Origin: Escherichia phage vB_EcoM_3A1_SA_NWU
Sequence record: OR062524
Length of the DNA: 64,000 nucleotides
Reading direction: 5' to 3' (one strand)
The position numbers were made by a program, and so were the translations under genes. Below the pieces are notes generated by a model that worked only from the letters and a program-made list of their open reading frames with translations, ran no database searches and was not told the origin of the DNA. This document shows, piece by piece, positions 1 to 43,120 of this stretch (positions within the stretch are counted from its first letter, which is position 1; each line of letters starts with the position of its first letter).

Positions 1-397
1 TGCATTTGTATTCGAAGATAGCATCCATACTCAACACTATAAAACCATGTGCCAAACCAGGTGGAAGCCAGAACTGTGTATGGTGTCGTGCACGAAGAAC
101 AACACCGTCCCAAGCACCGTAAGTAGGACTATCTTTACGTAGGTCTACAGCGAAATCCAATACTTCCCCACTTACACAACGAACAAGCTTACCTTGCGGA
201 TTATTTGTTTGAAAGTGCATTCCTCGCAAAACACCGAAGTTTGATTTAGACATGTTATCTTGAACGAAAGTTTGTCTACCAATGATATCTTCGTATTTTT
301 GTTCATTATATGTTTCTAAAAAGAAACCACGGTCATCTTTATAAACGTCTGGTTTGATAATTACCGCACCTTCAATTTTTGTTTTTTCTACTTTCAT
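1..397 (-). CDS. rmlC: dTDP-4-dehydrorhamnose 3,5-epimerase (RmlC-like); C-terminus cut by window edge
   Basis: Own reverse-strand translation from ATG at 397..395: [32 protein letters not shown]...GMHFQ...[33 protein letters not shown]...[10 protein letters not shown] (cupin RmlC signature). ATG overlaps rmlA stop (ATGA). Confidence 0.75.
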
Positions 398-1272
398 TTT
401 CCCTCCGCTAATTTGAGTAGGTATTGCCCGTACTCTGTTTTCTTCAGTGAGTTTCCATGGTAGACCAAAGTCTCTAAAGAAATCCACCCTTTTTTGAAAG
501 CAATTTCTTCCAGGCACGCAATCTTCAATCCTTGACAGTTCTCAATAGTCTGCACGAATTGACCAGCTTCCATCAGACTGGCGTGTGTTCCTGTGTCAAG
601 CCAAGTAAATCCTCGTCCGAGAACTTCTACTTGTAACTTCCTGTCTTCGAGGTAGCTGCGATTGATATCGGTGATCTCCAGTTCTCCACGCGCGGAAGGG
701 GTTACTTCTAATGCACGTTGAATAACAGAGTTATCATAGAAATACAAACCTGTGACAGCATAATCTGATTTAGGATTTTCAGGTTTCTCTTCAATAGAAA
801 TAACTTGACGATTACTCCCAAATTCAACCACACCGAATCGTTCAGGATCTTTCACCAAACACCCGAAGATACAAGCTCCGCCCCAAACATCTACCATCTC
901 ACTAGCGTTAATCAGTAGTTTACCAAAGCTTTGTCCGAAGAATAGGTTGTCACCTAAAATAAGAGCAACAGAGTCTTCTCCGATAAAATCTTTACCGATG
1001 ATGAAAGCGTCCGCAAGACCTCGTGGCTCGGATTGGATTGCGTAAGTGAGTTTTATCCCAAACATAGACCCATCTCCAAGAAGATGCTCAAAGTCTTCCT
1101 GATCGCCTGGTGTGGTGATGATTAAGATATCCTTAATGTCAGCCAACATCAATACCGATAAGGGGTAGTAGATCATGGGTTTGTCATACACAGGGAGCAA
1201 TTGCTTGCTCACACTGCGTGTTACCGGATGAAGGCGGGTTCCACTTCCTCCCGCCAAAATAATACCTTTCAT
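394..1272 (-). CDS. rmlA: glucose-1-phosphate thymidylyltransferase (RmlA)
   Basis: 292 aa; N-terminal [18 protein letters not shown]...[18 protein letters not shown] is the classic RmlA nucleotidyltransferase signature. Confidence 0.9.
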
Positions 1273-1280
1273 AACCCTCC

Positions 1281-2273
1281 TTAAATCTTCTTACTCCACC
1301 ATTGAGGGTTGTTTAAGTACCATTCAATCGTTGAGTAGAGATCTTGTTCAAATGTAGAGTTTGCACTCCAACCCAGTTCAGACTCTATTTTAGAAGGATT
1401 GATTTCATAACGCAAGTCATGTCCTTTACGATCTTCAACAAAAGTTATCAAGTTGGAAGAAGGGTAGGTTCCTGCTTCTGGATGTACAGCATCCATGTAG
1501 TCACAAACCATATAGATGATCTCCATATTGGTTTTGGGATTACGTGTTCCAACATTATACGTTTGACCTGGTTCTCCACCTGTTGCCACTTGAAGAATAG
1601 CTCGCGCATGATCCTCAACAAAAAGCCAGTCTCGCACCTGATCGCCTTTACCATACACCGGAATCTCTTTATTCGTCAAGATACTTGTGATGATTTTTGG
1701 GATCAGCTTTTCTGGATGTTGATAAGGTCCAAAGTTATTGGAGCAGTTGGTTATCACAACAGGTAAACCGTAGGTACGGTACCAAGCTTTCACAAGATGG
1801 TCAGATGCTGCCTTAGACGCACTGTACGGGCTTGAAGGGGCATAAGCTGTCTCTTCGGTAAAGGGAACGCCAGAGTCTGCCATATCGCCGTACACTTCGT
1901 CTGTGGAGACATGTACGAACATCTTAAGTTTATTTTTTGGGAGGAGCCTTGCAGCTTCCAATAAATTGTATGTACCAATAATATTGGAGTCGATGAAAAC
2001 TCGTGGATTCTTGATAGAATTATCCACATGACTCTCTGCCGCTAAGTGAATGATGAAATCGGGATTGCACTCTACTACTAAACTTTTGACCTGGGTTTCG
2101 TTTGCCAAATCTGTTATGCTTAGTTTAACGTGAGTGATATCGCCTACATTCTCAATATCTGCTGCATAGCCCATCTTATCAACGACAAAAACTTCGTTAT
2201 TGGGATCTTGACAAAGAGAGCGCACCACGGCACTCCCAATAAAACCAAGACCACCTGTTACCAGATAGCGCAT
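1281..2273 (-). CDS. rmlB: dTDP-glucose 4,6-dehydratase (RmlB)
   Basis: 330 aa; Rossmann GGLGFIGS, catalytic YSASK motif, short-chain dehydratase length. Confidence 0.9.
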
Positions 2274-2905: not shown

Positions 2906-3114
2906 TATTCCTCCTTAATTATTTCAAATTTGGCAACACCATTTACAATAATATGACCACAAGACATAACTCCTAGCCAAGGATCGCCGTTTTTCTTCAG
3001 GCGTTTACCGAATACATCACAAAAACCATTCTTCATTTCAGAGGCTTCATAAGAAGCCCCTTTATCAAAAACGTCTTTGAATGTGTCGATTATACCAACA
3101 CATTTCAAAATCAT
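2905..3114 (-). CDS. hypothetical protein (69 aa)
   Basis: ORF track; overlaps nrdB stop by 4 nt. Confidence 0.45.
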   Translation of the reverse strand: MILKCVGIIDTFKDVFDKGASYEASEMKNGFCDVFGKRLKKNGDPWLGVMSCGHIIVNGVAKFEIIKEE

Positions 3115-4199
3115 TCGAAGTCAAGCTCCTCATCATCAGAGAGATCTTTGTTAGCTGAATTCAATTTGTAGTTAGTTAACTGAATCTCTTGGGCTGCTGA
3201 CTGAATCAAATCAGGATTCAACCATTTTTCCATCCAAGCTAAAGGGCTATGTTTAGGTGCTTTAAACTTGGCTTTCATTTTCAATCGACGATAAATAGGA
3301 GCAGCATTGAAATAAACCCACTGTTTAGACAATTCGGCGTTAAGACCTACAATAAAACGACCTTCACTAAACAGGTAGTCACACCACTGTTCCTCTTGTT
3401 CAACAACAGTGTCGAGGATCAAAGTCAACTCTTCAATATTGTCTTCGTAAATTTTACGCCAAATTGGGTCATGCATCAATGCATCAATTACAGCATAATC
3501 CATCTTAACATGCAAGATTTCATCTAGCATAATTTTCTGGATCAGTTTACAAGCCCCAACAAACAGTTGTTGTTCTGCCATAGCAAAAGTAGCAGAGAAG
3601 GAAGATATAAACTGAATACCTTCTAATCCAATCAGGGCTACCATCCCTTTAAGAATCAGCAGTCGAAGTTCATCGTTAGCTTCAATCAATCCTAGAGCAT
3701 ACTTATGACCAGCTTCTTCCAACTGACCCATGATATCAGCAATGATACCCATACGATTGAAAATTTTATCATTAATCATAATCTGATTGATGACTTCGAT
3801 TGGATCTGGAGTACATTGACGGATTATTTCAGAATACGTTAACGCATGGAGAACTTCCATTTCACTCTGCTTCATCATCATAGCACAGGCTTCATTGTTA
3901 CTCAAGAATGGAGAGAACAAAGTGATGATTGATTTTGCAAGAGAATCATTTTCCCATTGGAACGATAAGTTTTTAATCATAACATCATAATTGTTTTTAG
4001 AACAAGCTACGAAATCTTTACGTGTCTGATCCAGATTGACTTCATTCTCATCCCAATCTTGTGCTTTTTGAAGTTTGTAGAGTTTGTGCATCTCTGGATA
4101 AGTTACGTTAACAGAATCAAAAATCCCTAATTGTTCCCCTAAAAATACTGGATATTTTCCTGTTTTGTAAACTTCATTGTGTAAATTAATTGCTGCCAT
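3111..4199 (-). CDS. nrdB: ribonucleotide reductase class Ia small (beta) subunit
   Basis: 362 aa; ferritin-like R2 length and acidic C-terminal tail (DDEELDFE); immediately follows nrdA. Confidence 0.85.
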   Translation of the reverse strand: MAAINLHNEVYKTGKYPVFLGEQLGIFDSVNVTYPEMHKLYKLQKAQDWDENEVNLDQTRKDFVACSKNNYDVMIKNLSFQWENDSLAKSIITLFSPFLSNNEACAMMMKQSEMEVLHALTYSEIIRQCTPDPIEVINQIMINDKIFNRMGIIADIMGQLEEAGHKYALGLIEANDELRLLILKGMVALIGLEGIQFISSFSATFAMAEQQLFVGACKLIQKIMLDEILHVKMDYAVIDALMHDPIWRKIYEDNIEELTLILDTVVEQEEQWCDYLFSEGRFIVGLNAELSKQWVYFNAAPIYRRLKMKAKFKAPKHSPLAWMEKWLNPDLIQSAAQEIQLTNYKLNSANKDLSDDEELDFE

Positions 4200-4213
4200 T
4201 TAAAATTCTCCTC

Positions 4214-4235
4214 AATAAAAAGGGGCCGAAGCCCC
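4214..4235 (-). terminator. hairpin GGGGCUUCGGCCCC plus U5 between nrdA stop and nrdB RBS
   Basis: Plus-strand text aataaaaaggggccgaagcccc; on minus strand a GC stem with UUCG loop followed by TTTTT, then GAGGAG RBS and nrdB ATG. Confidence 0.55.
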
Positions 4236-4243
4236 TAGTTTCA

Positions 4244-6484
4244 TCACATCTTGCAAGCTTCACAACCACCATCAGAATCTTCTTGTGCTAAAGAATCTGC
4301 TGATTTTGTTCTACTATTAAGGTAATACAATGACTTGCCACCCAATCTAGCAAAATTCAGAATAAACTGCATCTCGGCTTTCACTGATAAACGTCCACCT
4401 ACCAATTTAGAATAATCTAGCCAAGAATCACAAGAAATTCCTTGGTCCGTAAACTTGGTAAAGATACCATACATTTCTGCAAGATCTTTAGCCGGAGTAT
4501 CCCAGGCGGATTGGTAGAACATTTTCAGTTTTTCGTAGTCTGGAACAATAAATAATACACTACCTTTCTGACTTTGTTTATACATAATAGTATCACGAAC
4601 AGGGTACAGAGAGTTAGTAGTATTGCTTACCAAACTGCTGGACTCATTAGGTGCAATAGCAGCCAAGACACTATTACGGATACCACCTTGTTCAATGATT
4701 TCAGCACGTAAACCTTCCCAGTCCATTTTAAGATCAAAGTTACCGACACTATCTACTGCTTTAGCATAGGTGTCAATTGGTAGCCAACCTTGAGGCCATT
4801 TGGTCTTATCGATCCATTCTGCATTACCTTTTTCCTTAGCCAGACGCAAAGAGGCTTTTGCCAACCAAAAGTAATGACGTTCTGCAAGTTCATGCATTAA
4901 TTTTTTAGCATAATCATCTGAATAATTTACAAAATTACTTGCCAAGTAATGTGCTAAGTTTGTAATGCCTACACCAATAGATCTACGTGCTTTAGCAGTT
5001 ATTTCGTTATGTTTAAATGGATAATCCATTGTTTCAATAACGTTGTCAATTGTCAATACAGTGTAGTATGCAACATCCTCATATTCTTCAGGTAATACAC
5101 GACCAGCAACAATAGAAGATAAGAAACATAAAGCCAATTCTTGATCTTCTGTATTTTCACCAGTAAAGAGATCCGGCATACTGTGGAAAGCTTTAGTTGG
5201 TAAGAAGATCTCTTGACACAGGTTTGATTGATACACCGTATCCAAGAAAGGTGTATGGTTGTTAACGTTGTCAGCAAAGAACATGTAAATACGTCCTGTT
5301 TCTGCACGTTGAACAATAATCTCTGTAAGAAGATCACGAGCCTTGACGAATTTTTTCTTAATGCGACGTCGGCTTACTTTGTCATAAACTGCATCAAACT
5401 CTTCTTCACTTTTATACAAAGCTTCATAAAGTTCAGGAGCATCATCACAACTAACTAACATCCAGTCTTCGTTTTTAGCTGCTCGACGCAAGAACGAACG
5501 GTTAACAACAATAGAATAATCCAGTTTGTCTACTCGTTTATCTATAGGTGTTGTTGGATTCTTCAGTCGAATCAGATCGTCGAAGTCTGGTTCAAGTATG
5601 GTAAAGGTAACTGTAGCACTACCTCCACGACTTGCTTGCTTTGAAGCTCCAACACTATCTTCCATCCATTTCAGATACGGAAGAAGACCACCATGAATAA
5701 TACGATTATTCTTAACACCTTGACCTGTGGCACGAGTTTGAAGATTAACACCAATACCTGCGTTATTCAACGTATACTCATGAGCTAAGTAATTAGCAAT
5801 GGCTAAAGACTCTGCCGTATCGTCTGCACGGAATAAACAACAAGACGCACTTCCTTTGATTGGAGTTCGTAGAGTTGTCAGATACGGCGATGGCAGATTA
5901 ATCTTAAGATCGCTAACATAAGTATAAAGTTTTTTAATATCTTCTATACGGCGTTCTTTTGGTTGGATCTCCATAACCTTCATTGCGATACCAATGAAAA
6001 GAAACTGTGGAGACTCATGCACCACATCGTTTACTGCATCTCGAATAAGATATTTATCTACCATCTGACGTAAAACAGAATAACCATAAGTTAGATTTTT
6101 ATTATGCTTTACAATCTTACCGATTTCTTTGATCTCTTCATCGGTATAATCCATTTTAGCCCAATGTCCACGTTCTACCATATCATGATAAAAGGTATTC
6201 AGTGAAGGGATACTGTGGTATCCCCCATGAGCCTGTTTGTAAATCATACCCAGAAGAAGTCTTCCTGCCATATCACTGTAAGCTTGTGTTTTCTTGTCAA
6301 TACACGCTGCAATCATTGCTTTATGCAGATCACGTGTAGACACACCGTCATAACACCGCTTCACAGCTTCTAATTCAATTTCAGACCAGTTTAGTTTACC
6401 TGCTGCAAATTCAGACCACTTACGAAGTTTTTCTGGATTAAACTCCTCTGTCTTACCATTAGATTTAGTTACAAAACGAATCAA
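4244..6484 (-). CDS. nrdA: ribonucleotide reductase class Ia large (alpha) subunit
   Basis: 746 aa; N-terminal ATP-cone-like region, C-terminal redox Cys pair (GGCEACKM). Confidence 0.9.
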   Translation of the reverse strand: MIRFVTKSNGKTEEFNPEKLRKWSEFAAGKLNWSEIELEAVKRCYDGVSTRDLHKAMIAACIDKKTQAYSDMAGRLLLGMIYKQAHGGYHSIPSLNTFYHDMVERGHWAKMDYTDEEIKEIGKIVKHNKNLTYGYSVLRQMVDKYLIRDAVNDVVHESPQFLFIGIAMKVMEIQPKERRIEDIKKLYTYVSDLKINLPSPYLTTLRTPIKGSASCCLFRADDTAESLAIANYLAHEYTLNNAGIGVNLQTRATGQGVKNNRIIHGGLLPYLKWMEDSVGASKQASRGGSATVTFTILEPDFDDLIRLKNPTTPIDKRVDKLDYSIVVNRSFLRRAAKNEDWMLVSCDDAPELYEALYKSEEEFDAVYDKVSRRRIKKKFVKARDLLTEIIVQRAETGRIYMFFADNVNNHTPFLDTVYQSNLCQEIFLPTKAFHSMPDLFTGENTEDQELALCFLSSIVAGRVLPEEYEDVAYYTVLTIDNVIETMDYPFKHNEITAKARRSIGVGITNLAHYLASNFVNYSDDYAKKLMHELAERHYFWLAKASLRLAKEKGNAEWIDKTKWPQGWLPIDTYAKAVDSVGNFDLKMDWEGLRAEIIEQGGIRNSVLAAIAPNESSSLVSNTTNSLYPVRDTIMYKQSQKGSVLFIVPDYEKLKMFYQSAWDTPAKDLAEMYGIFTKFTDQGISCDSWLDYSKLVGGRLSVKAEMQFILNFARLGGKSLYYLNSRTKSADSLAQEDSDGGCEACKM

Positions 6485-6500
6485 CTTCTCCTCCCTATTA

Positions 6501-6755
6501 TTAATGCATATTCAAAACATCTACATCATAACCGAACTTCATTTCATTAAAAAGTCCATTAGCATATAGAAAACCTTCAAAATGAGTTATGTCATCAAAC
6601 CCTTTTGCTTTTGCTCGACGGTCTGCTTCTTGTCTTTTAGGAGATAAACGTTTTGAAGTGTCTAGAATTACAGTTACATTACAACCAACAGTTTCATCAA
6701 AATAGACTTCGATTTCACAGCCTTCATATTTATTATCAGTCATTGTCCCTCTCAT
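6501..6755 (-). CDS. hypothetical protein (start more likely second ATG at 6743)
   Basis: ORF track; GAGGG RBS precedes the internal ATG. Confidence 0.45.
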   Translation of the reverse strand: MRGTMTDNKYEGCEIEVYFDETVGCNVTVILDTSKRLSPKRQEADRRAKAKGFDDITHFEGFLYANGLFNEMKFGYDVDVLNMH

Positions 6756-7195
6756 TGATTAGTATCATCTGCTTTCGCAGGATCATAAGAGTTACCGAAA
6801 TCATCCATCTTAATATGTGACGCACCCCAACCTGTAAATTCTTCATCACCAAAATGAAAAATATCATTTTCTTGATAGATTCGTTTAAAACCACAATTAG
6901 GTGAAACAGGGAAAGTGAAAAGCGTTGTATTTGCAAACACTACTCGCTTATCGTTATTGCTTCGGATATTCACATTACGCTCAACAGAATAGTGTGAATC
7001 TTCAGCCATACCCAGCATTACAAGCGACGCTCTAATAACAGCATTTTGTTTCTCGTGTGGGATATTGCCATTGTGTTTATTTGATTCTAGTTTCCAGATA
7101 GGGGTAGACATTACAGTAGACATGCTTACGGTAGCCCAAGTTGTAGTATTTACTAATGACATATTTTCTCCTTCATTTTGAATGGGAGGACTCAC
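6752..7195 (-). CDS. hypothetical protein (likely start ATG at 7162; track start is GTG)
   Basis: ORF track; GAAGGAG RBS 5 nt before internal ATG; promoter at 7217..7244 upstream. Confidence 0.5.
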   Translation of the reverse strand: MSPPIQNEGENMSLVNTTTWATVSMSTVMSTPIWKLESNKHNGNIPHEKQNAVIRASLVMLGMAEDSHYSVERNVNIRSNNDKRVVFANTTLFTFPVSPNCGFKRIYQENDIFHFGDEEFTGWGASHIKMDDFGNSYDPAKADDTNQ

Positions 7196-7216
7196 CTCCT
7201 CCCAGTATTGTGCTAT

Positions 7217-7244
7217 ATTATACTAAAACTAATACTAAAGTCAA
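7217..7244 (-). promoter_or_regulatory. sigma70-like promoter TTGACT-N16-TATAAT
   Basis: Reverse complement reads TTGACTttagtattagttttagTATAAT. Confidence 0.55.
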
Positions 7245-7260
7245 TAACTATTTAAACAGA

Positions 7261-8259
7261 TCACCATTTAGTATGATTTGTTAAAAGTTGACGATGTTGA
7301 ATCCAGCCTTTGAAATTGCCAGACCAAAACTTACCATTACGATCTACATGGGTAATACCTGGTTCCCAAGAGTTAAAATCCCAAGGAGCATTGATAAACA
7401 AATCTTCAAAACAGTTCTCTCCATATTGTTCGCATGTTTCTTGCATTGGAGTGGCTTGATGTTCAAACGGAGAAGCATGAACCTTGCGCCCAGTCAGCAA
7501 GCGACCATAGATATCTAAAGCTTTATCTTTAGTTGCATTTAAACGACGATAGCTAACCTGTGCACAACACGAAGCTGAAATAGCTTTGGCTTCTTCCAAA
7601 GTAAGCACAACGACTTCTCCAGATTCATTTTGAACGTAGTATCCACCAAAAACAAAATGATCGTCACCTTCTGTGCCAATAGTATCATAGAAATGGTCTA
7701 CATAAGGTGTGTGCCATTGCCCTGGTTTCAGCACTTCTGGTGTAGATCCTTCATACTCTTTGTGCATCTCTTTAGCCAAAGCTTCGATAGTAGGATCGGC
7801 TTCTTTGTCATCACGTAGCCACCAGAAATTTTCATATTCTGTTGCTGTCAGAACTGTTTTAATTCGTTGGAAAGGTTCCAGAAGACGGTTTGCAACTTGT
7901 TTGTGGTACCCTGCCAAAGAAAATTCTTCTGCAAAACGTGCTGCACTAAGCGCGGCAAGATCCCACCACTCTTGAGCAGTATAACCTGCATCAATAAGAG
8001 CGTCATGATCAACACCTTTATCCTGCATACCAGGTTGGTTAGCCCCAAAACGATAAGGACGAGCAGGTTGATTTCGCACCATTTCAATCAGTGTTTTAAC
8101 AGGTATAGCACGGCTAGAAGCAGCATTACGACTGAACAGGCGGTGAGTCATCAATTCTGAATGAATAATACGTGGATATTCTAGTTCAAAAGTTACAATC
8201 TCTTTTCCGTCTTCAGTGATGGAATGCGCAATAATACTAGCCGAAATCTGTTTTGTCAT
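7261..8259 (-). CDS. ThyX-like protein (flavin-dependent thymidylate synthase family, variant motif)
   Basis: 332 aa; THRLFSRNAASSR matches ThyX RHRxxSxxxxSxR spacing with R->T at first position; HASPFEH element. Confidence 0.5.
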   Translation of the reverse strand: MTKQISASIIAHSITEDGKEIVTFELEYPRIIHSELMTHRLFSRNAASSRAIPVKTLIEMVRNQPARPYRFGANQPGMQDKGVDHDALIDAGYTAQEWWDLAALSAARFAEEFSLAGYHKQVANRLLEPFQRIKTVLTATEYENFWWLRDDKEADPTIEALAKEMHKEYEGSTPEVLKPGQWHTPYVDHFYDTIGTEGDDHFVFGGYYVQNESGEVVVLTLEEAKAISASCCAQVSYRRLNATKDKALDIYGRLLTGRKVHASPFEHQATPMQETCEQYGENCFEDLFINAPWDFNSWEPGITHVDRNGKFWSGNFKGWIQHRQLLTNHTKW

Positions 8260-8268
8260 TTTTTCTCC

Positions 8269-8877
8269 TTAGTTTTTAAAATTGTTCAAAGTGTTAAAAA
8301 CATCCAAACATGTTAGCCACTGATCTTCTAAACCTGTGATCACAACATTTGGTTTTTTCTTTAGTTCTTCTAGATGGTTATCTTTATAAGGCGTATTAAA
8401 ATATATTTTAACCACTTCATCTGGAAAATATAGTAGGTTATCAGCCCTGTCATCTATTGCTATATCACAAGGCAATAAGTATTTTTCTTTCGTAGCAAAA
8501 AAGCCGTTGCCAGATCCTTTGCTAAAATCAATCGTATCTAATGTTCTTAAAACATGCTTATGTTTAGAACTTAAGTGACCACCTTTTGTCACACTCGCGA
8601 TCAAAAGATTGCTACCTTTCCTTGAAACATACTTTAAGAAATCTGGCATACCTGGAACAAAACCCATTGTATCGTAGAGATGAGGATTATCCAGAAATCC
8701 GTAAGGATCTATGTTGAACTCTTCCCTGAAACCAGGAAAATAGTTGGTAAGATCATAATCTGCATTTTTTGTGAATGTGTCGATTTTAACACCAAGGCCA
8801 CTAATCTTATTCAACCATTCTAACCAAGCAACATCTAACGGAGCCACAACTAAATCCCAATCACATACTATCTGCAT
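8269..8877 (-). CDS. HAD-superfamily hydrolase, putative 5'-deoxyribonucleotidase
   Basis: 202 aa; N-terminal VCDWDLVV resembles HAD motif I DxDxV. Confidence 0.45.
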   Translation of the reverse strand: MQIVCDWDLVVAPLDVAWLEWLNKISGLGVKIDTFTKNADYDLTNYFPGFREEFNIDPYGFLDNPHLYDTMGFVPGMPDFLKYVSRKGSNLLIASVTKGGHLSSKHKHVLRTLDTIDFSKGSGNGFFATKEKYLLPCDIAIDDRADNLLYFPDEVVKIYFNTPYKDNHLEELKKKPNVVITGLEDQWLTCLDVFNTLNNFKN

Positions 8878-8896
8878 AAAACCTCCTCTCTCTTTT

Positions 8897-8924
8897 AGTA
8901 TAGTTATCTTATACTAACTTTCAA
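8897..8924 (-). promoter_or_regulatory. sigma70-like promoter TTGAAA-N16-TATACT
   Basis: Reverse complement TTGAAAgttagtataagataacTATACT, followed by GAGAGGAGG RBS and the ATG of the 8269..8877 gene. Confidence 0.45.
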
Positions 8925-9489
8925 TTTCCTGCAATAGGATTTTGACTATTTGTTTACGGCGTTTTGCTACTGTGCTTTCAGGTTCTATTTTACGCTTCTT
9001 CAGCCATGCTTTATCTTTCTTAGCTCTACACAAAGCTATCGCTTCTTTTTCAGCTTTTGCTTCTTCAAAAGATATGCCTTGCTTGTCTGCATAAGCAAGA
9101 ATAGAGTTGCACAATTTACAAACCATTCGCAAATCTTCTTCTTTCACATAGATCAAACGGAAAACAAAAAGAGGAATATCATCAAAACATTGAAGTTGTT
9201 TTGCTGCGTGAATATGATCCACTTGGAAGTCTTTCATTCCTCCTCTATGTCCACATATTTCGCACTCACAATTCCAAACTTGTTTTGGTTTTCCAGTTTT
9301 CTTATCTAGTATTACATTGCCGTCTTTATCTACGCGATCAACTTTAAAACGCCTTGCATTGATAACCTTAATTTTATTAGGGTGTCTCATCCATGCTTTT
9401 CTAAAACATCCCCTAAGATAAGTATAAAATTCCGCTTGTGTTTTCCAGGGTGTTCCTTCACCCCACATTATTTTTGGTTCACCTGCCAA
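8914..9489 (-). CDS. HNH endonuclease-like protein (TTG start in track)
   Basis: 191 aa; CECEICGH...VDHIH...CKLCN fits a zinc-bound HNH core. Confidence 0.45.
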   Translation of the reverse strand: MAGEPKIMWGEGTPWKTQAEFYTYLRGCFRKAWMRHPNKIKVINARRFKVDRVDKDGNVILDKKTGKPKQVWNCECEICGHRGGMKDFQVDHIHAAKQLQCFDDIPLFVFRLIYVKEEDLRMVCKLCNSILAYADKQGISFEEAKAEKEAIALCRAKKDKAWLKKRKIEPESTVAKRRKQIVKILLQEIES

Positions 9490-9537
9490 TATTGCTCACC
9501 TTTTTAGCTGTATATTCCCCTGGTGGGATATTGTGTT

Positions 9538-13668: not shown

Positions 13669-14394
13669 TTACTTATTAATAATACCTGCAATATTAGGTT
13701 TGACAAAGGTCGATGGTTTCATGATCTTACCTTTATCATCAAAGAACACATACACTTTCTGTTTTTCATTATAAACAGCATGAACACCAGTGTATGCCCC
13801 TTCTGGACGATTGGCATTTCGTTCTTCAATTGCAGCGCATTCTTGTGCAATGGCTGAATCGATATCCGAAGTTTTCCAAGTTTTCAGCAACTGTTGTTTA
13901 GTTGGATACTTGGAATCATTACTTTTCAATACCTCTTTAATAACTTTCTTTTCTGGATATTTTGAACGGATTAGAGTGTCACGAGACATACGCATAATAC
14001 CAGCAGCCATTAGTGCCATTTGAACTGGCTCTGTAAATGTTTGTTCCAAAGCATCAAAATCAGTATACACAGTTGGAGTAAAAACATCGCCTACAGCATA
14101 GTCCAAGAAATTCATCGTATGTTCTTCACCAAAGAACATGTAGGTCAGATAACTGGATACTACAAAAATATCCGCTGCTGCATCCAAGAGTTCTACATGA
14201 TCGTTTACTTTCGCGGCTGTTTCATACTCTTTAAGCTCTTCACGAACGAATCCGATTTGGGACATAAATAGCTCTTGAGTGAATTCAGGTTGTTCACCAC
14301 CTCGTGCTTTAGCATTCCAATCAATCACGTGCTTCGCTGCATTTTTGAAAAATTCAGTATCGAACTTAATATCTTTAAAAAAATTCTCGATCAT
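13669..14394 (-). CDS. putative MazG-like nucleoside triphosphate pyrophosphohydrolase
   Basis: 241 aa; REELKEYETAAKVNDHVELLDAAADI resembles the EExxE...D metal-binding helix of all-alpha NTP pyrophosphatases. Confidence 0.35.
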   Translation of the reverse strand: MIENFFKDIKFDTEFFKNAAKHVIDWNAKARGGEQPEFTQELFMSQIGFVREELKEYETAAKVNDHVELLDAAADIFVVSSYLTYMFFGEEHTMNFLDYAVGDVFTPTVYTDFDALEQTFTEPVQMALMAAGIMRMSRDTLIRSKYPEKKVIKEVLKSNDSKYPTKQQLLKTWKTSDIDSAIAQECAAIEERNANRPEGAYTGVHAVYNEKQKVYVFFDDKGKIMKPSTFVKPNIAGIINK

Positions 14395-32548: not shown

Positions 32549-33550
32549 ATGCCAGCAGTAATTTTAGATCAGGTTGTAGATTTCAGCCCTATGATCGAAC
32601 TTCAGGATTCCCCTGATACACTGATTGCCAGCCTGAATCTGTTCAGTGTTGACTATCATTCAACTACCGCTATTGAAATCGGTAAAGAAAAAGCTGAAGA
32701 TGCTCTGATCTCCGCTCGTGAGCGTGGTGGTGAGCGTAACTTCCTGACCATGAAAAATCCAGAACTGAAAGCGTTCCGCATTCCGTTCTTCCCTCTGGAT
32801 AAAAACATCAAAGCTCAAGATATTCAATCTTTCCGTAGTTTTGCAATGGCAGGAATCAATGACTCTCTGCGCACAGACGCTGAAGTTGTTAACCGCTATA
32901 TGTCCCAGATTCTGCGTGACGTAGCAAAAACCAAAGAAAAAATCTTTGCAGAAGCAGTTATGGGTCGTGCCTATAACGGCGTAGGTGGTGCAGCTAACTC
33001 TGCATACAACTGGTATACCGAATGGGGTGCTACCCAGAAATCTGTTGCTGTAGACTTTGCTTCTACCACTGTTTCTCCAGCAGCCACTATCGAACAAGAA
33101 GCTCGTGCTTACATCATCGATACTAAACAAGATGGCTCTACCGCTACCCGTATCGTAGCTCTGTGTTCTCGTGAGTTTTTCGCATCTCTGGTTAACTCTC
33201 CATTTGTTCGCCAGGCATATCAGTATTTCCAGGGAACTCCTAACCTTCTGCGTGACCGCCTTAGCGGTAACATGGATGTTCAGGTGTTCGAATGGAACGG
33301 TGTAACTTACATTGAAGATATCCACGGTAACATCCCTGCTGGTGAAGCATATGTTCTGCCTATGGGTATCGAAGGTATGTTCCAGGCGCACTACGCTCCT
33401 GCGGATACTCCAGAACTGGCTAACACCCAGGCTCGTGAACTGTATACCTTCATGATCAGCCAGCACCGCACTATTCAGCTTCAGTCTGAATTCTCGCTGC
33501 TCGCAGTTAACACCCGTCCAGAACTGGTAGTTAAACTGACTACGGCTTAA
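32549..33550 (+). CDS. major capsid protein
   Basis: 333 aa; highly expressed-type codon usage; C-terminal region (..NTQAR..) recalls lambda gpE-type capsid proteins; followed by terminator. Confidence 0.65.
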   Translation: MPAVILDQVVDFSPMIELQDSPDTLIASLNLFSVDYHSTTAIEIGKEKAEDALISARERGGERNFLTMKNPELKAFRIPFFPLDKNIKAQDIQSFRSFAMAGINDSLRTDAEVVNRYMSQILRDVAKTKEKIFAEAVMGRAYNGVGGAANSAYNWYTEWGATQKSVAVDFASTTVSPAATIEQEARAYIIDTKQDGSTATRIVALCSREFFASLVNSPFVRQAYQYFQGTPNLLRDRLSGNMDVQVFEWNGVTYIEDIHGNIPAGEAYVLPMGIEGMFQAHYAPADTPELANTQARELYTFMISQHRTIQLQSEFSLLAVNTRPELVVKLTTA

Positions 33551-33570
33551 TAGAACTCTGTTAATATTAG

Positions 33571-33604
33571 AGGCTCGTCCGTGATGGGCGAGCCTTTTCT
33601 GTTT
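33571..33604 (+). terminator. terminator-like hairpin plus T-rich tract after capsid gene
   Basis: aggctcgtccgtgatgggcgagccttttctgttt. Confidence 0.5.
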
Positions 33605-33634
33605 ACAATAAGAGTTTACAACGAGGAGATTGAT

Positions 33635-33979
33635 ATGTCAAACCCAGAATTGAAACGTTACTTTAGTTATCACGAAATGATTCGTGATTTCGAATCGCTT
33701 TCACCACTGATCGATGCTGATAAAACATTAGTATCTGCGCCACCAATGTCTTTCTATCTGAAAGATGGTCGTATTGCATTAGGTGGAAACTTCATTCACT
33801 TCCTCACGCGTTTGAGAGAAGAAACAGGTATTCTTGTGCATCCTTTTGCAAGTGAAGAACACATGGGTTACTATCTTGTAAGTTACGAAGACTATGCACC
33901 TGTAAAAATCAAAGAAGAAGTTTTAAAAGTAGAAGCGGTAGACACTCCAGCTAAAAAACGTTCCCTTCGTAAAAAATAA
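33635..33979 (+). CDS. hypothetical head/neck protein (start at third Met of track ORF 33581..33979)
   Basis: GGAG RBS before ATG 33635; track start lies inside the terminator. Confidence 0.45.
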   Translation: MSNPELKRYFSYHEMIRDFESLSPLIDADKTLVSAPPMSFYLKDGRIALGGNFIHFLTRLREETGILVHPFASEEHMGYYLVSYEDYAPVKIKEEVLKVEAVDTPAKKRSLRKK

Positions 33980-33988
33980 GGTGGGCTT

Positions 33989-34537
33989 ATGCTGAATGCG
34001 GTAGAGTTGGCACCACTGATCCGAATTCTTGTTTATAACCCTTCTCAAGAAGTATTGCCAGATGCAATGCTGATTCAGATCGTCCAAACTTGGATTGATA
34101 TTATAGGGAATGAAGATAAGGATAAGTGTGCAGTATTGTGGAACAGCTTGATTTCTGTTTTAGAGTATTTATGGAACAACGATGTTCTTAACAACAGTAC
34201 TCAAACAGGAGGAGCTATGTCCCGCAGAGAAAAGATGGGTGAAGTCGAAGTTGAAGTTAAATTTAACAACGGTCAAGTCACTTATAAATCTCCGTGGGAA
34301 GATATTTATCATAACTATTTAAATGGTCTTATGGTGATCCCTGGGTGCACGGCAGGACGAGGAGCAACCAGCAAAGTTCTTATTGGCGGTGTGGATGCTC
34401 GTGAGATTGATCGAGTAAACAGCGATCCTAACTCTGTAAATGGTCTTGGTAATGTTGCAAGTGTTGATCGTAATACACGCAACGTTAATTATTTGCGAAA
34501 TTACGGACCTGTTTCTTTTTATCGTAGGGACAAATAA
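33989..34537 (+). CDS. putative head-tail connector protein
   Basis: 182 aa; position between capsid and sheath. Confidence 0.4.
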   Translation: MLNAVELAPLIRILVYNPSQEVLPDAMLIQIVQTWIDIIGNEDKDKCAVLWNSLISVLEYLWNNDVLNNSTQTGGAMSRREKMGEVEVEVKFNNGQVTYKSPWEDIYHNYLNGLMVIPGCTAGRGATSKVLIGGVDAREIDRVNSDPNSVNGLGNVASVDRNTRNVNYLRNYGPVSFYRRDK

Positions 34538-42109: not shown

Positions 42110-43120
42110 ATGGCAGAAAGAGAGTATACAAAAGCTCCTGCCCCTAATTTAAACAGGGCATACAAATTATTAATTGGTTCTGCCACAAACACAATACAGA
42201 AGAGAACTAAGAACTCGGCATTTAAATCTACAGTAGATTTGGATACCAAGTTAGGAACAACAGAAAAATCCTCTTCTAATTTGTATTTGTTGCAAGACCA
42301 TCAAATAACCTTCAGTATTAAGAAAGATAATAACAAAGATCCTAACCAAGCAGAGATTGTAGTTTATAACCTTTCGGATGATACTGTTAACTATATAAAC
42401 CGTGGTATCCGAAATAACTTGGCTGTTGCTTTAGCGGTAGGATACGAAGGTGAAGAGTTGGTTATGGTCTTCAAAGGAACTATCCAGTGGGTTAGTGATA
42501 CTTTTGACTCGGTAGACAGGAAAACCACTTTACACTGTTTGGATGGCGGTATTAACATTGCAGAAGCAAGAACAAGCCGCAGTTATCCAAAAGGAACTAA
42601 AATCAAACGTGTTGTGACAGATTTGGTAAAGGATTTAGGAACTACAGAAGGTAATATACACGTAGATAATGATCAAACCTTATCCTCAGCAACAGCTATG
42701 TGTGGAAACACTTCACATTACCTAGAACATATTTGTAAAAGTATTGATCACAATGTGTCAATACAAGATGGATCTGTTTATGTCACTCCTCGTTCACAAA
42801 TGTCTAGTGCACGTAGCGCCTACATTAGCCCTGAAACTGGTCTGATAGGAAGTCCAGAACCATTCCACAACGATATAAAACCTACTAAAAAAGTTACCAA
42901 GTCATCTAAGAAGGCAAAGAAACCTACAGATGGTGTTAAATTCAAATGCCAAATGAATGGTGCAATATTACCAGAAAAAACAATCTGGTTAAAAAGCCGA
43001 GATTATGATGGTCCATTTAAAGTTGTTTCTGTTTCTCACAATGGTGATAAAGAGGGTAAAGAGTGGGTTACTGAAGTGGAGTGTGTATCCGTGTCTGAAA
43101 TAATGACTAAGGAGAAATAA
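42110..43120 (+). CDS. baseplate hub-type protein (putative)
   Basis: 336 aa; precedes spike gene. Confidence 0.4.
   Translation: MAEREYTKAPAPNLNRAYKLLIGSATNTIQKRTKNSAFKSTVDLDTKLGTTEKSSSNLYLLQDHQITFSIKKDNNKDPNQAEIVVYNLSDDTVNYINRGIRNNLAVALAVGYEGEELVMVFKGTIQWVSDTFDSVDRKTTLHCLDGGINIAEARTSRSYPKGTKIKRVVTDLVKDLGTTEGNIHVDNDQTLSSATAMCGNTSHYLEHICKSIDHNVSIQDGSVYVTPRSQMSSARSAYISPETGLIGSPEPFHNDIKPTKKVTKSSKKAKKPTDGVKFKCQMNGAILPEKTIWLKSRDYDGPFKVVSVSHNGDKEGKEWVTEVECVSVSEIMTKEK

What the first reader, a model, noticed from the sequence alone, without database searches (positions are those of the whole stretch)
7261..8259. ThyX-like protein with altered signature (THR instead of RHR) and extended length
THRLFSRNAASSR fits the ThyX RHRxxSxxxxSxR spacing except the first Arg, and the protein is about 100 aa longer than typical ThyX. 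Next to dTDP-sugar genes, a HAD nucleotidase and a MazG-like gene, it may make dTMP or a modified pyrimidine nucleotide.
Basis: partly seen in the sequence, partly recalled or inferred. Interest (0 to 1): 0.5.

Follow-up and report, generated by a model that had tools for sequence, protein, structure and literature searches.

The report
Rearranged ThyX-type phage thymidylate synthase
This phage gene most likely encodes a flavin-dependent enzyme that makes the DNA building block dTMP; its function is ordinary, but it belongs to a very large, uncharacterised branch of the ThyX family whose sequence modules are in a different order and which lacks several residues thought typical of ThyX.

Summary

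The Thr is not a local oddity. It marks a huge subfamily: about 5,000 clusters at 50% identity and more than 1,000 phage genomes. In 137 representatives with a readable motif, the R78 position is Thr in 131 and the Y91 position is Ala in 136.

The extra length has two causes:
- The canonical N-terminal module (helices plus HxSPFEH) lies after the core instead of before it.
- There are two phage-specific insertions and a conserved tail.

The main catalytic residues are kept (equivalents of H53, S88, R90, R147, R174).

Context points to plain dTMP synthesis:
- The gene sits next to ribonucleotide reductase genes.
- No ThyA was found in a complete genome of the same genus.
- Saccharibacteria have a conserved thyX-dcd-tmk cluster.
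- Pseudanabaena carries a chromosomal copy.
- Inteins interrupt its conserved motifs in homologues.

Close relatives carrying the same gene are reported as highly sensitive to restriction systems, which argues against a modified thymine.

Verdict: an ordinary function in an unusual, apparently undescribed ThyX architecture. No activity was measured.

The parts
7261..8259 (-). Gene for the 332-aa permuted ThyX-family protein (ESCO13_00112); the stop codon is 7261-7263
8264..8269 (-). Ribosome-binding site (AGGAGA) of the gene. It overlaps the stop codon of the upstream NT5C-like gene, so the two genes are tightly packed.
   Evidence: Sequence. Annotated RBS 42643-42648 in KX552041.2.
7726..8217 (-). 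ThyX core, aa 15-178, collinear with T. maritima ThyX residues 55-203 (strand beta3 through helix alpha7)
   Evidence: hhalign of the family profile against ThyX: aa 19-178 match Tm 59-203; against a canonical profile aa 15-196 match Tm 55-215, prob 88.9, E 2.4e-6. Pfam Thy1 positions 59-190.
8107..8148 (-). ThyX signature in its family-specific form, T38-H-R-L-F-S-R-N-A-A-S-S-R50-A51. Equivalents in T. maritima: R78->T38, H79->H39, R80->R40, S88->S48, R90->R50, Y91->A51.
   Evidence: Translation. Residue map. Frequencies in 137 representatives: T 131, Ala at the Y91 position 136.
8023..8046 (-). Family-specific conserved loop G72-A-N-Q-P-G77-M78-Q79 (G77 and M78 invariant), in the place of the canonical substrate-recognition loop. 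Its role is unknown.
   Evidence: Invariant columns in A3, A2 and A5.
7699..7716 (-). Family-specific motif W182-H183-T-P185-Y-V just after the core (H183 and P185 invariant). Its role is unknown.
   Evidence: A3 and A5 invariant columns.
7606..7698 (-). Phage-specific insertion 1 (aa about 188-218, predicted beta-hairpins), absent from cellular homologues
   Evidence: Alignment A5 with the Saccharibacteria, Pseudanabaena and Vulcanimicrobiota proteins. Secondary structure of the model.
7456..7599 (-). Relocated ThyX N-terminal module, aa 221-268: two helices (S228, S236-Y237) and H261-A-S-P-F-E-H267. It is homologous to T. maritima residues about 17-59 (S22, S30, H53-E-T-P-F-E58-H59).
   Evidence: hhalign aa 224-283 match Tm 18-75, E 1.6e-5; the C-terminal part alone gives prob 90.4, E 1.4e-6. 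Pfam Thy1 positions 12-57 match aa 265-309 of the Fpv1 homologue. A canonical ThyX HMM hits this region in 233 of 249 family members and in 0 of 249 shuffled controls. The motif lies after the signature in 115/115 family members and before it in 108/108 canonical ThyX.
7327..7443 (-). Phage-specific insertion 2 (aa about 273-311, includes WExGxTHxDRxG), absent from cellular homologues
   Evidence: Alignment A5. Lower pLDDT here.
7285..7326 (-). Conserved C-terminal tail W312-S-G-N315-F-K-G-W-I-Q321-H-R323-Q-L (R323 invariant; N315 and Q321 nearly so), with no counterpart in canonical ThyX. It is a candidate replacement for the lost Arg contacts (inference).
   Evidence: Invariant columns in A3, A4 and A5.
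8269..8877 (-). Upstream neighbour: HAD-superfamily NT5C-like putative (deoxy)nucleotidase. It is conserved in Stephanstirmvirinae but was not found next to the gene in four distant phage clades.
   Evidence: Pfam NT5C 26.1 bits. PHROG 420. No tblastn hit in L002-L005.
3111..6484 (-). Downstream partners: class Ia ribonucleotide reductase alpha (4244-6484) and beta (3111-4199). The thyX-like gene lies beside or near RNR genes in other phage clades too.
   Evidence: ORFs. Annotation. Same linkage in Ccr2, K5, EmilieFrey, MaxBurger and ICP1.
7217..7244 (-). Near-consensus sigma-70-like promoter (TTGACT-16-TATAAT, 11 of 12) in the 65-bp gap after the gene, facing the two small ORFs and the RNR genes
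   Evidence: Consensus scan only; not evidence of function.

Best explanation
The gene encodes a functional flavin-dependent thymidylate synthase of the ThyX superfamily. It converts dUMP to dTMP to feed phage DNA replication, working alongside the adjacent phage ribonucleotide reductase.

It belongs to a very large, biochemically uncharacterised ThyX subfamily with a permuted module order. The helical module that carries the flavin/folate-site residues (equivalents of S30, H53, T55 and E58 of T. maritima ThyX) lies C-terminal to the catalytic core instead of N-terminal.

Inferred mechanism:
- As in ThyX, reduced FAD takes the methylene from CH2-tetrahydrofolate. dUMP is activated by the R174-equivalent (R149) and held by the equivalents of S88, R90 and R147 (S48, R50, R125). 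It attacks the flavin-bound carbon, and the flavin then reduces the exocyclic methylene to a methyl group.
- The side of the pocket that in canonical ThyX and PolB binds the sugar-phosphate has been rebuilt: R74, Q75, R78 and E86 become S34, E35, T38 and A46.
- The proposed acid Y91 has been replaced by A51.
- Family-specific invariant residues presumably take over these roles (G77-M78, K120, H183, R323).

Shown here: homology, fold, module order, residue conservation, genomic context.
Inferred, not shown: FAD binding, substrates, product, oligomeric state, and which residues replace R78 and Y91.
For: Fold:
- The AF2 model has pLDDT 93.9 and pTM 0.91.

Residues:
- Equivalents of H79, R80, S88, R90, R147, N169, R174, S30, H53, T55 and E58 are all present.
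- Of these, H39, R50, R125, N144, R149, S236 and H261 are invariant across 65 diverse members.

Permutation:
- There are two non-collinear profile hits: aa 15-196 match Tm 55-215, and aa 224-283 match Tm 18-75, both with E about 1e-5 to 1e-6.
- It is family-wide: 233 of 249 members against 0 of 249 shuffled controls; motif order 115/115 against 108/108.

Function from context:
- The gene lies beside or near nrdA/nrdB here and in Caulobacter, Pseudomonas, Vibrio and other Escherichia phages.
- tblastn at E<=1 finds no ThyA, canonical ThyX, Dut, FolA, dCMP deaminase or Tmk in a complete Phapecoctavirus genome or in the window.
- In Saccharibacteria the same permuted gene is followed by dCTP deaminase and thymidylate kinase, among ribosomal-protein genes and dnaX. 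The gene is followed by the dCTP deaminase gene in seven loci; a thymidylate kinase gene follows in all seven (found only by a Tmk query in L069 and L077), and in L043 and L045 the deaminase gene starts more than 1 kb after it.
- In Pseudanabaena it is chromosomal, among cobalamin-synthesis, recO and malic-enzyme genes, and recurs across at least 18 genomes.
- dUTPase lies within the 6-kb flanks in seven further loci.

Importance of the motifs:
- Inteins interrupt the family at five sites, all inside conserved motifs: the YPRxxH segment, THR, the SSR segment, LRxH, and H|xSPFEH.

Normal thymine:
- BASEL phages Bas61 (77% identical) and Bas54 (54%) carry the gene with the same synteny.
- Their group is reported as exceptionally susceptible to RM systems (PMC8594841).
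Against: - No member of this subfamily was found to have been assayed in the literature I could search, so activity is inferred.
- The strict ThyX signature is not met.
- Y91 is always Ala. The Y91A mutant of T. maritima ThyX slows consumption of the flavin carbinolamine more than 100-fold (PMC8316439).
- The 3'-OH and phosphate ligands described for PolB are replaced. These are PolB R86, E94 and R82; equating them with Tm R78, E86 and R74 is my own offset mapping (PMC5003785).
- The NCBIfam thyX equivalog scores 31.1 bits against a cut-off of 87.9.
- The 3D placement of the relocated module could not be checked.
- I could not scan whole Saccharibacteria or Pseudanabaena genomes, so I have not shown that this is their only thymidylate synthase.
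Confidence: 0.8

Rival explanations
1. The enzyme makes a non-canonical pyrimidine nucleotide, for example 5-hydroxymethyl-dUMP: water rather than flavin hydride would add to the exocyclic methylene. In Stephanstirmvirinae this base would then be decorated with rhamnose by the phage's dTDP-rhamnose pathway and glycosyltransferases. The NT5C-like and MazG-like enzymes would clear the canonical nucleotides.
For: - The phage encodes RmlABCD and four annotated glycosyltransferases, and has no other C5-modifying enzyme.
- Olsen et al. speculated that rhamnose might glycosylate hydroxymethylated nucleotides (PMC7552041).
- Y91, R78 and E86 equivalents are all changed.
- A nucleotidase-like gene is directly adjacent.
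- There is a clade-specific change from AQPEI to ADPTI after the R174-equivalent.
Against: - The same residue changes (T38, A51) are present in the housekeeping copies of Saccharibacteria, which sit in a dcd-tmk cluster, and of Pseudanabaena. Those organisms must make ordinary dTMP.
- The family is present in more than 1,000 phages, most without sugar genes.
- Bas61 and Bas54 carry the ADPTI variant and the same synteny, yet their group is exceptionally sensitive to restriction systems.
- The NT5C-like neighbour is not conserved outside this clade.
Confidence: 0.06
2. It is a ThyX-fold methylase acting on a different substrate form: UMP as in PolB, dUDP or dUTP, or uracil in a polynucleotide. 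The sugar-phosphate side of the pocket has been rebuilt, which would allow this.
For: - The residues that contact the phosphate and the 3'-OH in PolB are all replaced. These are PolB R82, H83, R86 and E94; equating them with Tm R74, Q75, R78 and E86 is my own offset mapping.
- There is a new invariant Arg in the tail and new conserved loops.
Against: - The phosphate ligands S88, R90 and R147 and the base ligand R174 are kept.
- Context with dCTP deaminase, thymidylate kinase, dUTPase and RNR fits a dUMP-to-dTMP step.
- No nucleic-acid-binding domain was detected.
Confidence: 0.08
3. It is a catalytically dead ThyX relic that serves another role, for example binding nucleotide or flavin, or acting as a scaffold for a dNTP-synthesis complex.
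For: The canonical signature and Y91 are lost, and it fails the NCBIfam equivalog threshold.
Against: - Most catalytic residues are strictly conserved across about 5,000 clusters.
- Inteins target exactly these motifs.
- It holds a housekeeping position in the small genome of a Saccharibacterium.
- It is the only thymidylate-synthase candidate found in the complete Phapecoctavirus genome examined, although the E. coli host has its own ThyA.
Confidence: 0.03

Closest known systems
Thermotoga maritima ThyX (TM0449; PDB 1O26, 5CHP and others), the reference flavin-dependent thymidylate synthase
   Same: - Equivalents of H53, T55, E58, H79, R80, S88, R90, R147, N169 and R174 are present.
- The inferred chemistry is the same.
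   Different: - About 18% identity.
- The N-terminal module (Tm 17-59) lies after the core.
- Substitutions: R78->T, Y91->A, R74->S, Q75->E, E86->A.
- Extra conserved loop (NQxGM), a WHxP motif and a GNFxGWxQxR tail.
- 112 aa longer.
PBCV-1 A674R ThyX (PDB 4FZB, 2CFA), a viral ThyX
   Different: It has the canonical module order, which shows in its collinear alignment to T. maritima ThyX, and is about 216 aa long. That it carries the canonical RHR...SQRY signature is from my own memory of the sequence, not tested here.
PolB of Streptomyces cacaoi (PDB 4P5A), a ThyX-fold UMP/dUMP C5-methylase
   Different: PolB keeps the residues I map, by offset, to R74, R78, E86, Y91 and the RHR motif (PMC5003785) and has the canonical module order. 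It is 38% identical to Tm ThyX, whereas this family is about 18-20%.
ThyA-family phage dUMP/dCMP hydroxymethylases and the 5-hydroxy-dCMP synthase (T4 gp42, SPO1 gp29, RB69 gp48)
   Same: They are a functional analogy for the rival reading only: phage enzymes derived from a thymidylate synthase that make modified pyrimidine mononucleotides, which are later glycosylated (PMC13326640).
   Different: The fold (ThyA) is unrelated, and there is no sequence similarity. Nothing here shows a modified product.

Membership tests
ThyX / Thy1 superfamily (Pfam PF02511) | Score above Pfam's gathering threshold | tested here: met
   33.4 bits against 24.8, aa 22-174 matching profile positions 59-190. Homologues score 26-60 bits.
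ThyX / Thy1 superfamily | ThyX three-dimensional fold | tested here: met
   [not shown]
ThyX (flavin-dependent thymidylate synthase, strict sense) | Signature RHRxxSxxxxSxR | tested here: not met
   THRLFSRNAASSR: the first Arg is Thr and all other fixed positions are met. T occurs in 131 of 137 family representatives.
ThyX (strict sense) | NCBIfam equivalog TIGR02170 score above its cut-off | tested here: not met
   31.1 bits against a cut-off of 87.9.
ThyX (strict sense) | Catalytic and ligand residues H53, S88, R90, R147, R174 | tested here: met
   H261, S48, R50, R125 and R149 by profile alignment. Four are invariant in 65 diverse members, and S48 is at least 90% conserved.
ThyX (strict sense) | Tyr91 (proposed general acid) and the ribose/phosphate ligands R74, R78 and E86 | tested here: not met
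   A51 (Ala in 136 of 137), S34, T38 and A46. Roles are taken from PMC8316439 and PMC5003785; the PolB-to-Tm residue numbering is my own offset mapping.
ThyX (strict sense) | Canonical order of modules (N-terminal helices and HxTPFEH before the signature) | tested here: not met
   The module is found after the core. The order is 'after' in 115/115 family members and 'before' in 108/108 canonical ThyX.
ThyX (strict sense) | Bound FAD; NADPH- and CH2-THF-dependent conversion of dUMP to dTMP; complementation of thyA | not testable with these tools
   This needs biochemistry or genetics. No assay of any subfamily member was found in the searchable literature.
ThyX (strict sense) | Homotetramer with active sites shared by three subunits | not tested
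   Only a monomer was modelled.
ThyX (functional role) | Genomic association with dUMP supply and dTMP use | tested here: met
   nrdAB linkage in phages. A thyX-dcd-tmk cluster in Saccharibacteria, with dUTPase or FolA within the 6-kb flanks in other loci.
ThyA (classical thymidylate synthase and its hydroxymethylase relatives) | Sequence similarity to ThyA | tested here: not met
   No tblastn match of E. coli ThyA in the window or in a complete Phapecoctavirus genome beyond chance (E 0.77). The fold hits are ThyX only.
PolB-type UMP C5-methylase | ThyX fold plus PolB-specific Loop 1 and Loop 2, with the canonical pocket residues retained | tested here: inconclusive
   [not shown]

The most novel reading that the evidence does not exclude
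The permuted ThyX subfamily, which lacks Tyr91 and the 3'-OH and phosphate ligands, may have altered chemistry. In Stephanstirmvirinae (the ADPTI variant) it could deliver a non-canonical pyrimidine such as 5-hydroxymethyl-dUMP. That base would be rhamnosylated by the phage's own dTDP-rhamnose pathway and glycosyltransferases. It would be the first flavin-dependent (ThyX-type) route to a hypermodified DNA base.
Probability: 0.05. Interest if true: 0.8.

Novelty: new variant of a known kind. Interest (0 to 1): 0.35.

Why it matters
The function is routine: many phages carry their own thymidylate synthase, and many records already label this gene 'FAD-dependent thymidylate synthase'.

What is less routine is that this label rests on a weak partial Pfam match. 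The protein belongs to a very large ThyX branch found in phages, Saccharibacteria, Pseudanabaena and Vulcanimicrobiota. In that branch:
- a whole active-site module has moved to the other end of the chain;
- residues regarded as conserved or mechanistically important in ThyX (R78, Y91, E86, R74) are systematically absent.

If the branch is active, three things follow:
- The 'ThyX motif' and the proposed acid role of Tyr91 are not universal, and there is a second structural solution for binding dUMP.
- Annotation models such as the TIGR02170 equivalog miss a major group of thymidylate synthases.
- ThyX-directed inhibitor design and surveys of thyA/thyX distribution should take this form into account.

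It also removes one candidate from the list of possible DNA-hypermodification genes in phapecoctaviruses. That leaves their dTDP-rhamnose genes unexplained.

Tried and rejected
- A single-sequence search of PDB sequences found nothing. A profile of close homologues gave only E=1.3 to T. maritima ThyX. Sequence alone was insufficient, so structure prediction and profile-profile comparison were needed.
- I tested structurally whether the C-terminal part equals the ThyX N-terminal module. A fragment-only AF2 model (aa 197-332) had pLDDT 71 and pTM 0.42, and its Foldseek search gave no hit below E=0.65.
- The afdb50 fold library was not available.
The 5-sequence alignment worked.
- Literature look-ups for the role of the first Arg of RHR mostly failed. 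Two key papers are not held, and three searches or look-ups returned nothing useful. The role was taken indirectly from the PolB paper.
- I searched for a description of a permuted or divergent ThyX and found nothing relevant. This does not prove that it is undescribed.
- I tested whether the 147-aa ORF downstream (6752-7195) matches the 114-aa 'thymidylate synthase' annotated next to the gene in Pseudomonas phage K5. There is no similarity. K5 gp101 has no Pfam or NCBIfam hit, so that label is unsupported.
- I tested whether the NT5C-like, MazG-like and small neighbouring ORFs travel with the gene in distant phage clades. They do not: there were no hits in L002-L005.
- I considered that the long (520-680 aa) family members were informative fusions. 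They are rejected as such: they carry inteins with HNH or LAGLIDADG endonucleases.
- I considered dCMP as substrate because of the clade-specific Q->D change (ADPTI). I rejected this as unlikely, because the R90 and R174 equivalents are retained and phages with the same variant are restriction-sensitive.
Full report
**What the window is**

Bases 6500-9500 are 100% identical to Escherichia phage ESCO13 (KX552041.2, genus Phapecoctavirus, subfamily Stephanstirmvirinae). Window position equals record position minus 34379. The ORF in question is ESCO13_00112. That record annotates it as 'hypothetical protein'. Sister genomes label it 'FAD-dependent thymidylate synthase' or 'thymidylate synthase ThyX'.

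**The observation**

- ORF 7261..8259 on the minus strand starts with ATG, has an AGGAG ribosome-binding site 6-7 nt upstream, and encodes 332 aa.
- Residues 38-50 read THRLFSRNAASSR. This is the ThyX signature RHRxxSxxxxSxR with Thr in place of the first Arg.
- Solved ThyX and PolB chains are 216-270 residues long, so the protein is indeed about 100 aa longer.
They lie immediately downstream, after two small ORFs.

**Is it a ThyX?**

By sequence the link is weak:
- Pfam Thy1 scores 33.4 bits (cut-off 24.8) and covers only profile positions 59-190.
- The NCBIfam thyX equivalog scores 31.1 bits against a cut-off of 87.9.
- A direct search of PDB sequences finds nothing.

By structure the link is clear:
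- An AlphaFold2 model built on 65 diverse homologues has mean pLDDT 93.9 and pTM 0.91.
- Every top Foldseek hit is a ThyX or the ThyX-fold methylase PolB.

**The Thr is a family trait**

- The protein has homologues in 1034 phage records: phapecoctaviruses, vequintaviruses, ICP1, pakpunaviruses, N4-like phages, phiCbK-like phages, Flavobacterium and Campylobacter phages, and others.
- In the library of 50%-identity representatives, 4984 clusters match at E<1e-3 and 1607 at E<1e-30.
- Among the 150 best representatives, 137 have a recognisable signature. In these:
  - the first position is Thr in 131 (Arg in 2);
  - the Y91-equivalent is Ala in 136;
  - the Q75-equivalent is Glu in 125;
  - the R74- and E86-equivalents are small residues.
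- The family signature is therefore T-H-R-x-x-S-[RK]-N-x-x-S-S-R-A.

**Why it is longer: a permuted module order**

- The C-terminal half contains VH261-A-S-P-F-E-H267 preceded by ...SASCCAQVSY.... In T. maritima ThyX the matching segments are at the N-terminus (...SAVRAARVSF... and H53-E-T-P-F-E58-H59). I confirmed the recalled T. maritima sequence as identical to PDB 1KQ4.
- Comparing the family profile with a canonical ThyX profile gives two significant, non-collinear matches:
  - aa 15-196 match Tm 55-215 (probability 88.9%, E 2.4e-6);
  - aa 224-283 match Tm 18-75 (E 1.6e-5; the C-terminal part alone gives 90.4%, E 1.4e-6).
- Two independent checks agree:
  - In the Flavobacterium phage Fpv1 homologue, Pfam's own Thy1 model matches aa 265-309 to profile positions 12-57.
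  - A canonical ThyX HMM hits the C-terminal part at HMM positions about 14-30 to 50-75 in 233 of 249 family members, and in 0 of 249 shuffled controls.
- The HxSPxEH motif lies after the signature in 115/115 family members and before it in 108/108 canonical ThyX.
- An N-terminal beta-strand (aa 6-14) still precedes the core. I therefore cannot say whether this is a strict circular permutation or the relocation of one module.
- I could not verify the 3D position of the module. A fragment-only model was poor and gave no significant match.
- The remaining extra length comes from two insertions (aa about 188-218 and about 273-311) that are absent from cellular homologues, and from a conserved tail, WSGNFxGWxQxRQ, with an invariant Arg323.

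**Active-site bookkeeping**

Retained:
- H79->H39, R80->R40, S88->S48, R90->R50, R147->R125, N169->N144, R174->R149.
- In the relocated module: S30->S236, H53->H261, T55->S263, E58->E266.

Seven of these are invariant across 65 sequences that share as little as 38% identity with the query.

Replaced:
- R74->S34, Q75->E35, R78->T38, E86->A46, Y91->A51.

Roles according to the literature:
- The PolB structure paper reports contacts that, by my offset mapping to Tm numbering, place R74 and Q75 at the nucleotide phosphate and R78 and E86 at the ribose 3'-OH. R90 and R174 hold the uracil carbonyls (PMC5003785).
- According to Bou-Nader et al., R174 activates dUMP. S88 and Y91 hydrogen-bond the flavin carbinolamine. 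Y91A slows the step more than 100-fold (PMC8316439).

The base-recognition and activation residues are therefore kept. One wall of the sugar-phosphate pocket and the proposed acid have been replaced throughout the family. Family-specific invariant residues presumably take over (G77-M78, K120, H183, P185, R323). This last point is inference.

**What it does**

The context argues for plain dTMP synthesis.

In phages:
- The gene lies beside or near ribonucleotide reductase genes here, in the Caulobacter phage Ccr2, in the Pseudomonas phage K5, in ICP1, and in the BASEL phages EmilieFrey and MaxBurger.
- In EmilieFrey a thymidine kinase gene lies two genes upstream.
- N4-like roseophages carry the N4 gp30 homologue two ORFs from a dCMP deaminase gene (PMC2784036). 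That ORF29 and N4 gp30 belong to this subfamily is inferred from the N4-like tblastn hits, not tested.
- A complete Phapecoctavirus genome (nieznany) and the window contain no homologue of ThyA, canonical ThyX, dUTPase, DHFR, dCMP deaminase or thymidylate kinase at E<=1. This is the only thymidylate-synthase candidate found there.

In cellular genomes:
- A scan of one genome per species found 458 relatives.
- In the complete 1.04-Mb genome of a Saccharibacterium (CP011211.1), the permuted gene is followed directly by a dCTP deaminase-like gene and then thymidylate kinase. The cluster sits between ribosomal protein genes and dnaX.
- The gene is followed by the dCTP deaminase gene in seven Saccharibacteria-type loci. 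A thymidylate kinase gene follows in all seven, though in L069 and L077 it was found only with the E. coli Tmk query, and in L043 and L045 the deaminase gene starts more than 1 kb after the thyX gene. One of these loci also has a DHFR gene alongside.
- In Pseudanabaena the gene is chromosomal, among cobalamin-synthesis, recO and malic-enzyme genes, and recurs in at least 18 genomes.
- These cellular proteins (275-286 aa) share every family motif, including THR...SSRA and the relocated HxSPxEH.
- Organisms that use this form as a housekeeping gene in a dTTP-pathway cluster must be making dTMP with it. I could not scan their whole genomes, so I have not shown that they lack a second thymidylate synthase.

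Inteins:
- The 520-680-aa family members carry inteins with HNH or LAGLIDADG endonucleases. They are inserted at five different sites, all within the conserved motifs: after the His of YPRxxH, after THR, inside SSR, after LRxH, and after the His of HxSPFEH.
- From general knowledge, inteins typically home into catalytically critical segments of replication and nucleotide-metabolism enzymes. This fits the relocated motif being functionally important.

**The modified-base idea**

Arguments for it:
- Phapecoctaviruses encode RmlABCD and four annotated glycosyltransferases.
- Olsen et al. speculated that rhamnose might decorate hydroxymethylated nucleotides (PMC7552041).
- The loss of Y91, the adjacent nucleotidase-like gene, and a clade-specific change from AQPEI to ADPTI after the R174-equivalent could be read in that direction.

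Arguments against it:
- The Thr and Ala changes are shared by the housekeeping copies.
- Most phages with the gene have no sugar genes.
- The NT5C-like neighbour is not conserved outside this clade.
- EmilieFrey (Bas61, 77% identical, ADPTI, same synteny, same subfamily, also with a dTDP-sugar pathway) and MaxBurger (Bas54, 54%, ADPTI) belong to the group the BASEL study describes as 'exceptionally susceptible' to restriction-modification systems, 'despite a putative dTDP glycosylation machinery' (PMC8594841).

I put this reading at about 5%.

**Novelty**

- As a gene it is already annotated in many genomes as a ThyX-type thymidylate synthase, and its likely function is routine.
- The following were not described in any paper I could search: the permuted order, the family-wide loss of R78, Y91, E86 and R74, the new conserved motifs, and the use of this form as a housekeeping enzyme in Saccharibacteria and Pseudanabaena. 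I also found no biochemical test of any member. The searchable library lacks most subscription journals, so this is not proof of novelty.
- I file it as a new variant of a known kind. It is of modest interest to ThyX enzymologists and to annotation, and of low interest as a phage DNA-modification lead.

**Verdict**

- Confidence that this is an active dUMP-to-dTMP flavoenzyme is about 0.8.

Noticed in passing
Homologues P0128, P0136, P0143, P0151, P0157, P0170, P0187, P0201, P0214, P0218, P0219, P0221, P0224, P0238, P0247, P0259, P0263 (equivalent window aa 33/34, 40/41, 48/49, about 151/152, 261/262): Family members of 520-680 aa carry inteins with HNH or LAGLIDADG homing endonucleases. The inteins sit at five different insertion sites, each inside a conserved motif of the permuted ThyX. 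The ESCO13 copy has no intein.
   Followed up: partly
L056:6004-8248 (Candidatus Saccharibacteria GW2011_GWC2_44_17, CP011211.1); also L043, L045, L069, L071, L077, L083: A gene cluster of permuted thyX, dCTP deaminase-like gene and thymidylate kinase sits in Saccharibacteria genomes among ribosomal-protein genes and dnaX. In L043 and L045 the deaminase gene starts more than 1 kb after the thyX gene. L077 also has a DHFR homologue next to it.
   Followed up: partly
L080:5995-6822 and at least 17 other Pseudanabaena loci: Pseudanabaena species carry a short (275 aa) chromosomal copy of the permuted ThyX among housekeeping genes (cbiC, a precorrin methylase, recO, malic enzyme). This suggests it is their cellular thymidylate synthase. 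Whole genomes were not scanned for thyA or canonical thyX.
   Followed up: partly
window 394-2273 (rmlA, rmlB), continuing upstream of the window in ESCO13 (rmlC, rmlD at record 33046-34448); four glycosyltransferase genes in phage nieznany, L008:38806-41950: The phage carries a complete dTDP-rhamnose pathway inside its DNA-metabolism region, plus a block of four glycosyltransferases next to the primase and DNA polymerase genes. The target of this glycosylation machinery is unknown. Related phages are restriction-sensitive, so a DNA target is doubtful.
   Followed up: partly
window 7217-7244 (minus strand): A near-consensus sigma-70-type promoter (TTGACT, 16 nt, TATAAT; 11 of 12) lies in the 65-bp gap between the thyX-like gene and the next ORF. 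The RNR genes may therefore have their own host-polymerase promoter.
   Followed up: no
window 6752-7195 and 6501-6755 (minus strand): Two small ORFs (147 or 136 aa, and 84 aa) always sit between the thyX-like gene and nrdA in Stephanstirmvirinae and Vequintavirus. They have no Pfam or NCBIfam hit (PHROG 15711, unknown function). The longest ORF starts at a GTG at 7195, but ESCO13 annotates an ATG start at window position 7162.
   Followed up: partly
L005:4962-5306 (Pseudomonas phage K5 gp101): A 114-aa protein directly downstream of the K5 thyX-like gene is annotated 'thymidylate synthase'. It has no Pfam or NCBIfam match and no similarity to the ESCO13 neighbour, so the label looks like an annotation error.
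   Followed up: yes
L007:16883-17539 (phage nieznany), compared with window 4200-4243: Phage nieznany has an HNH homing endonuclease gene inserted between nrdA and nrdB. In ESCO13 the two genes are only 44 bp apart. Another free-standing HNH gene lies at window 8914-9489, two genes upstream of the thyX-like gene.
   Followed up: no
window aa 153-158 of the ORF (nt 7786-7803); alignments A1 and A6: Enterobacterial myophages (Phapecoctavirus, Justusliebigvirus, Vequintavirus and relatives with at least 54% identity) have A-D-P-T-I where the rest of the family, ICP1 and canonical ThyX have A-Q-[PW]-E-I, just after the R174-equivalent. The functional meaning is unknown.
   Followed up: partly
L002:3995-5080 (Flavobacterium phage Fpv1): The Fpv1 homologue has an extra insertion of about 50 aa directly after the LR (R174-equivalent) motif, and an HNH endonuclease gene that overlaps its start.
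   Followed up: no
window 13669-14394 (minus strand): The MazG-like protein is 241 aa, but only residues 34-85 match the pyrophosphohydrolase profile (PRA-PH, 28 bits). The rest is uncharacterised.
   Followed up: no
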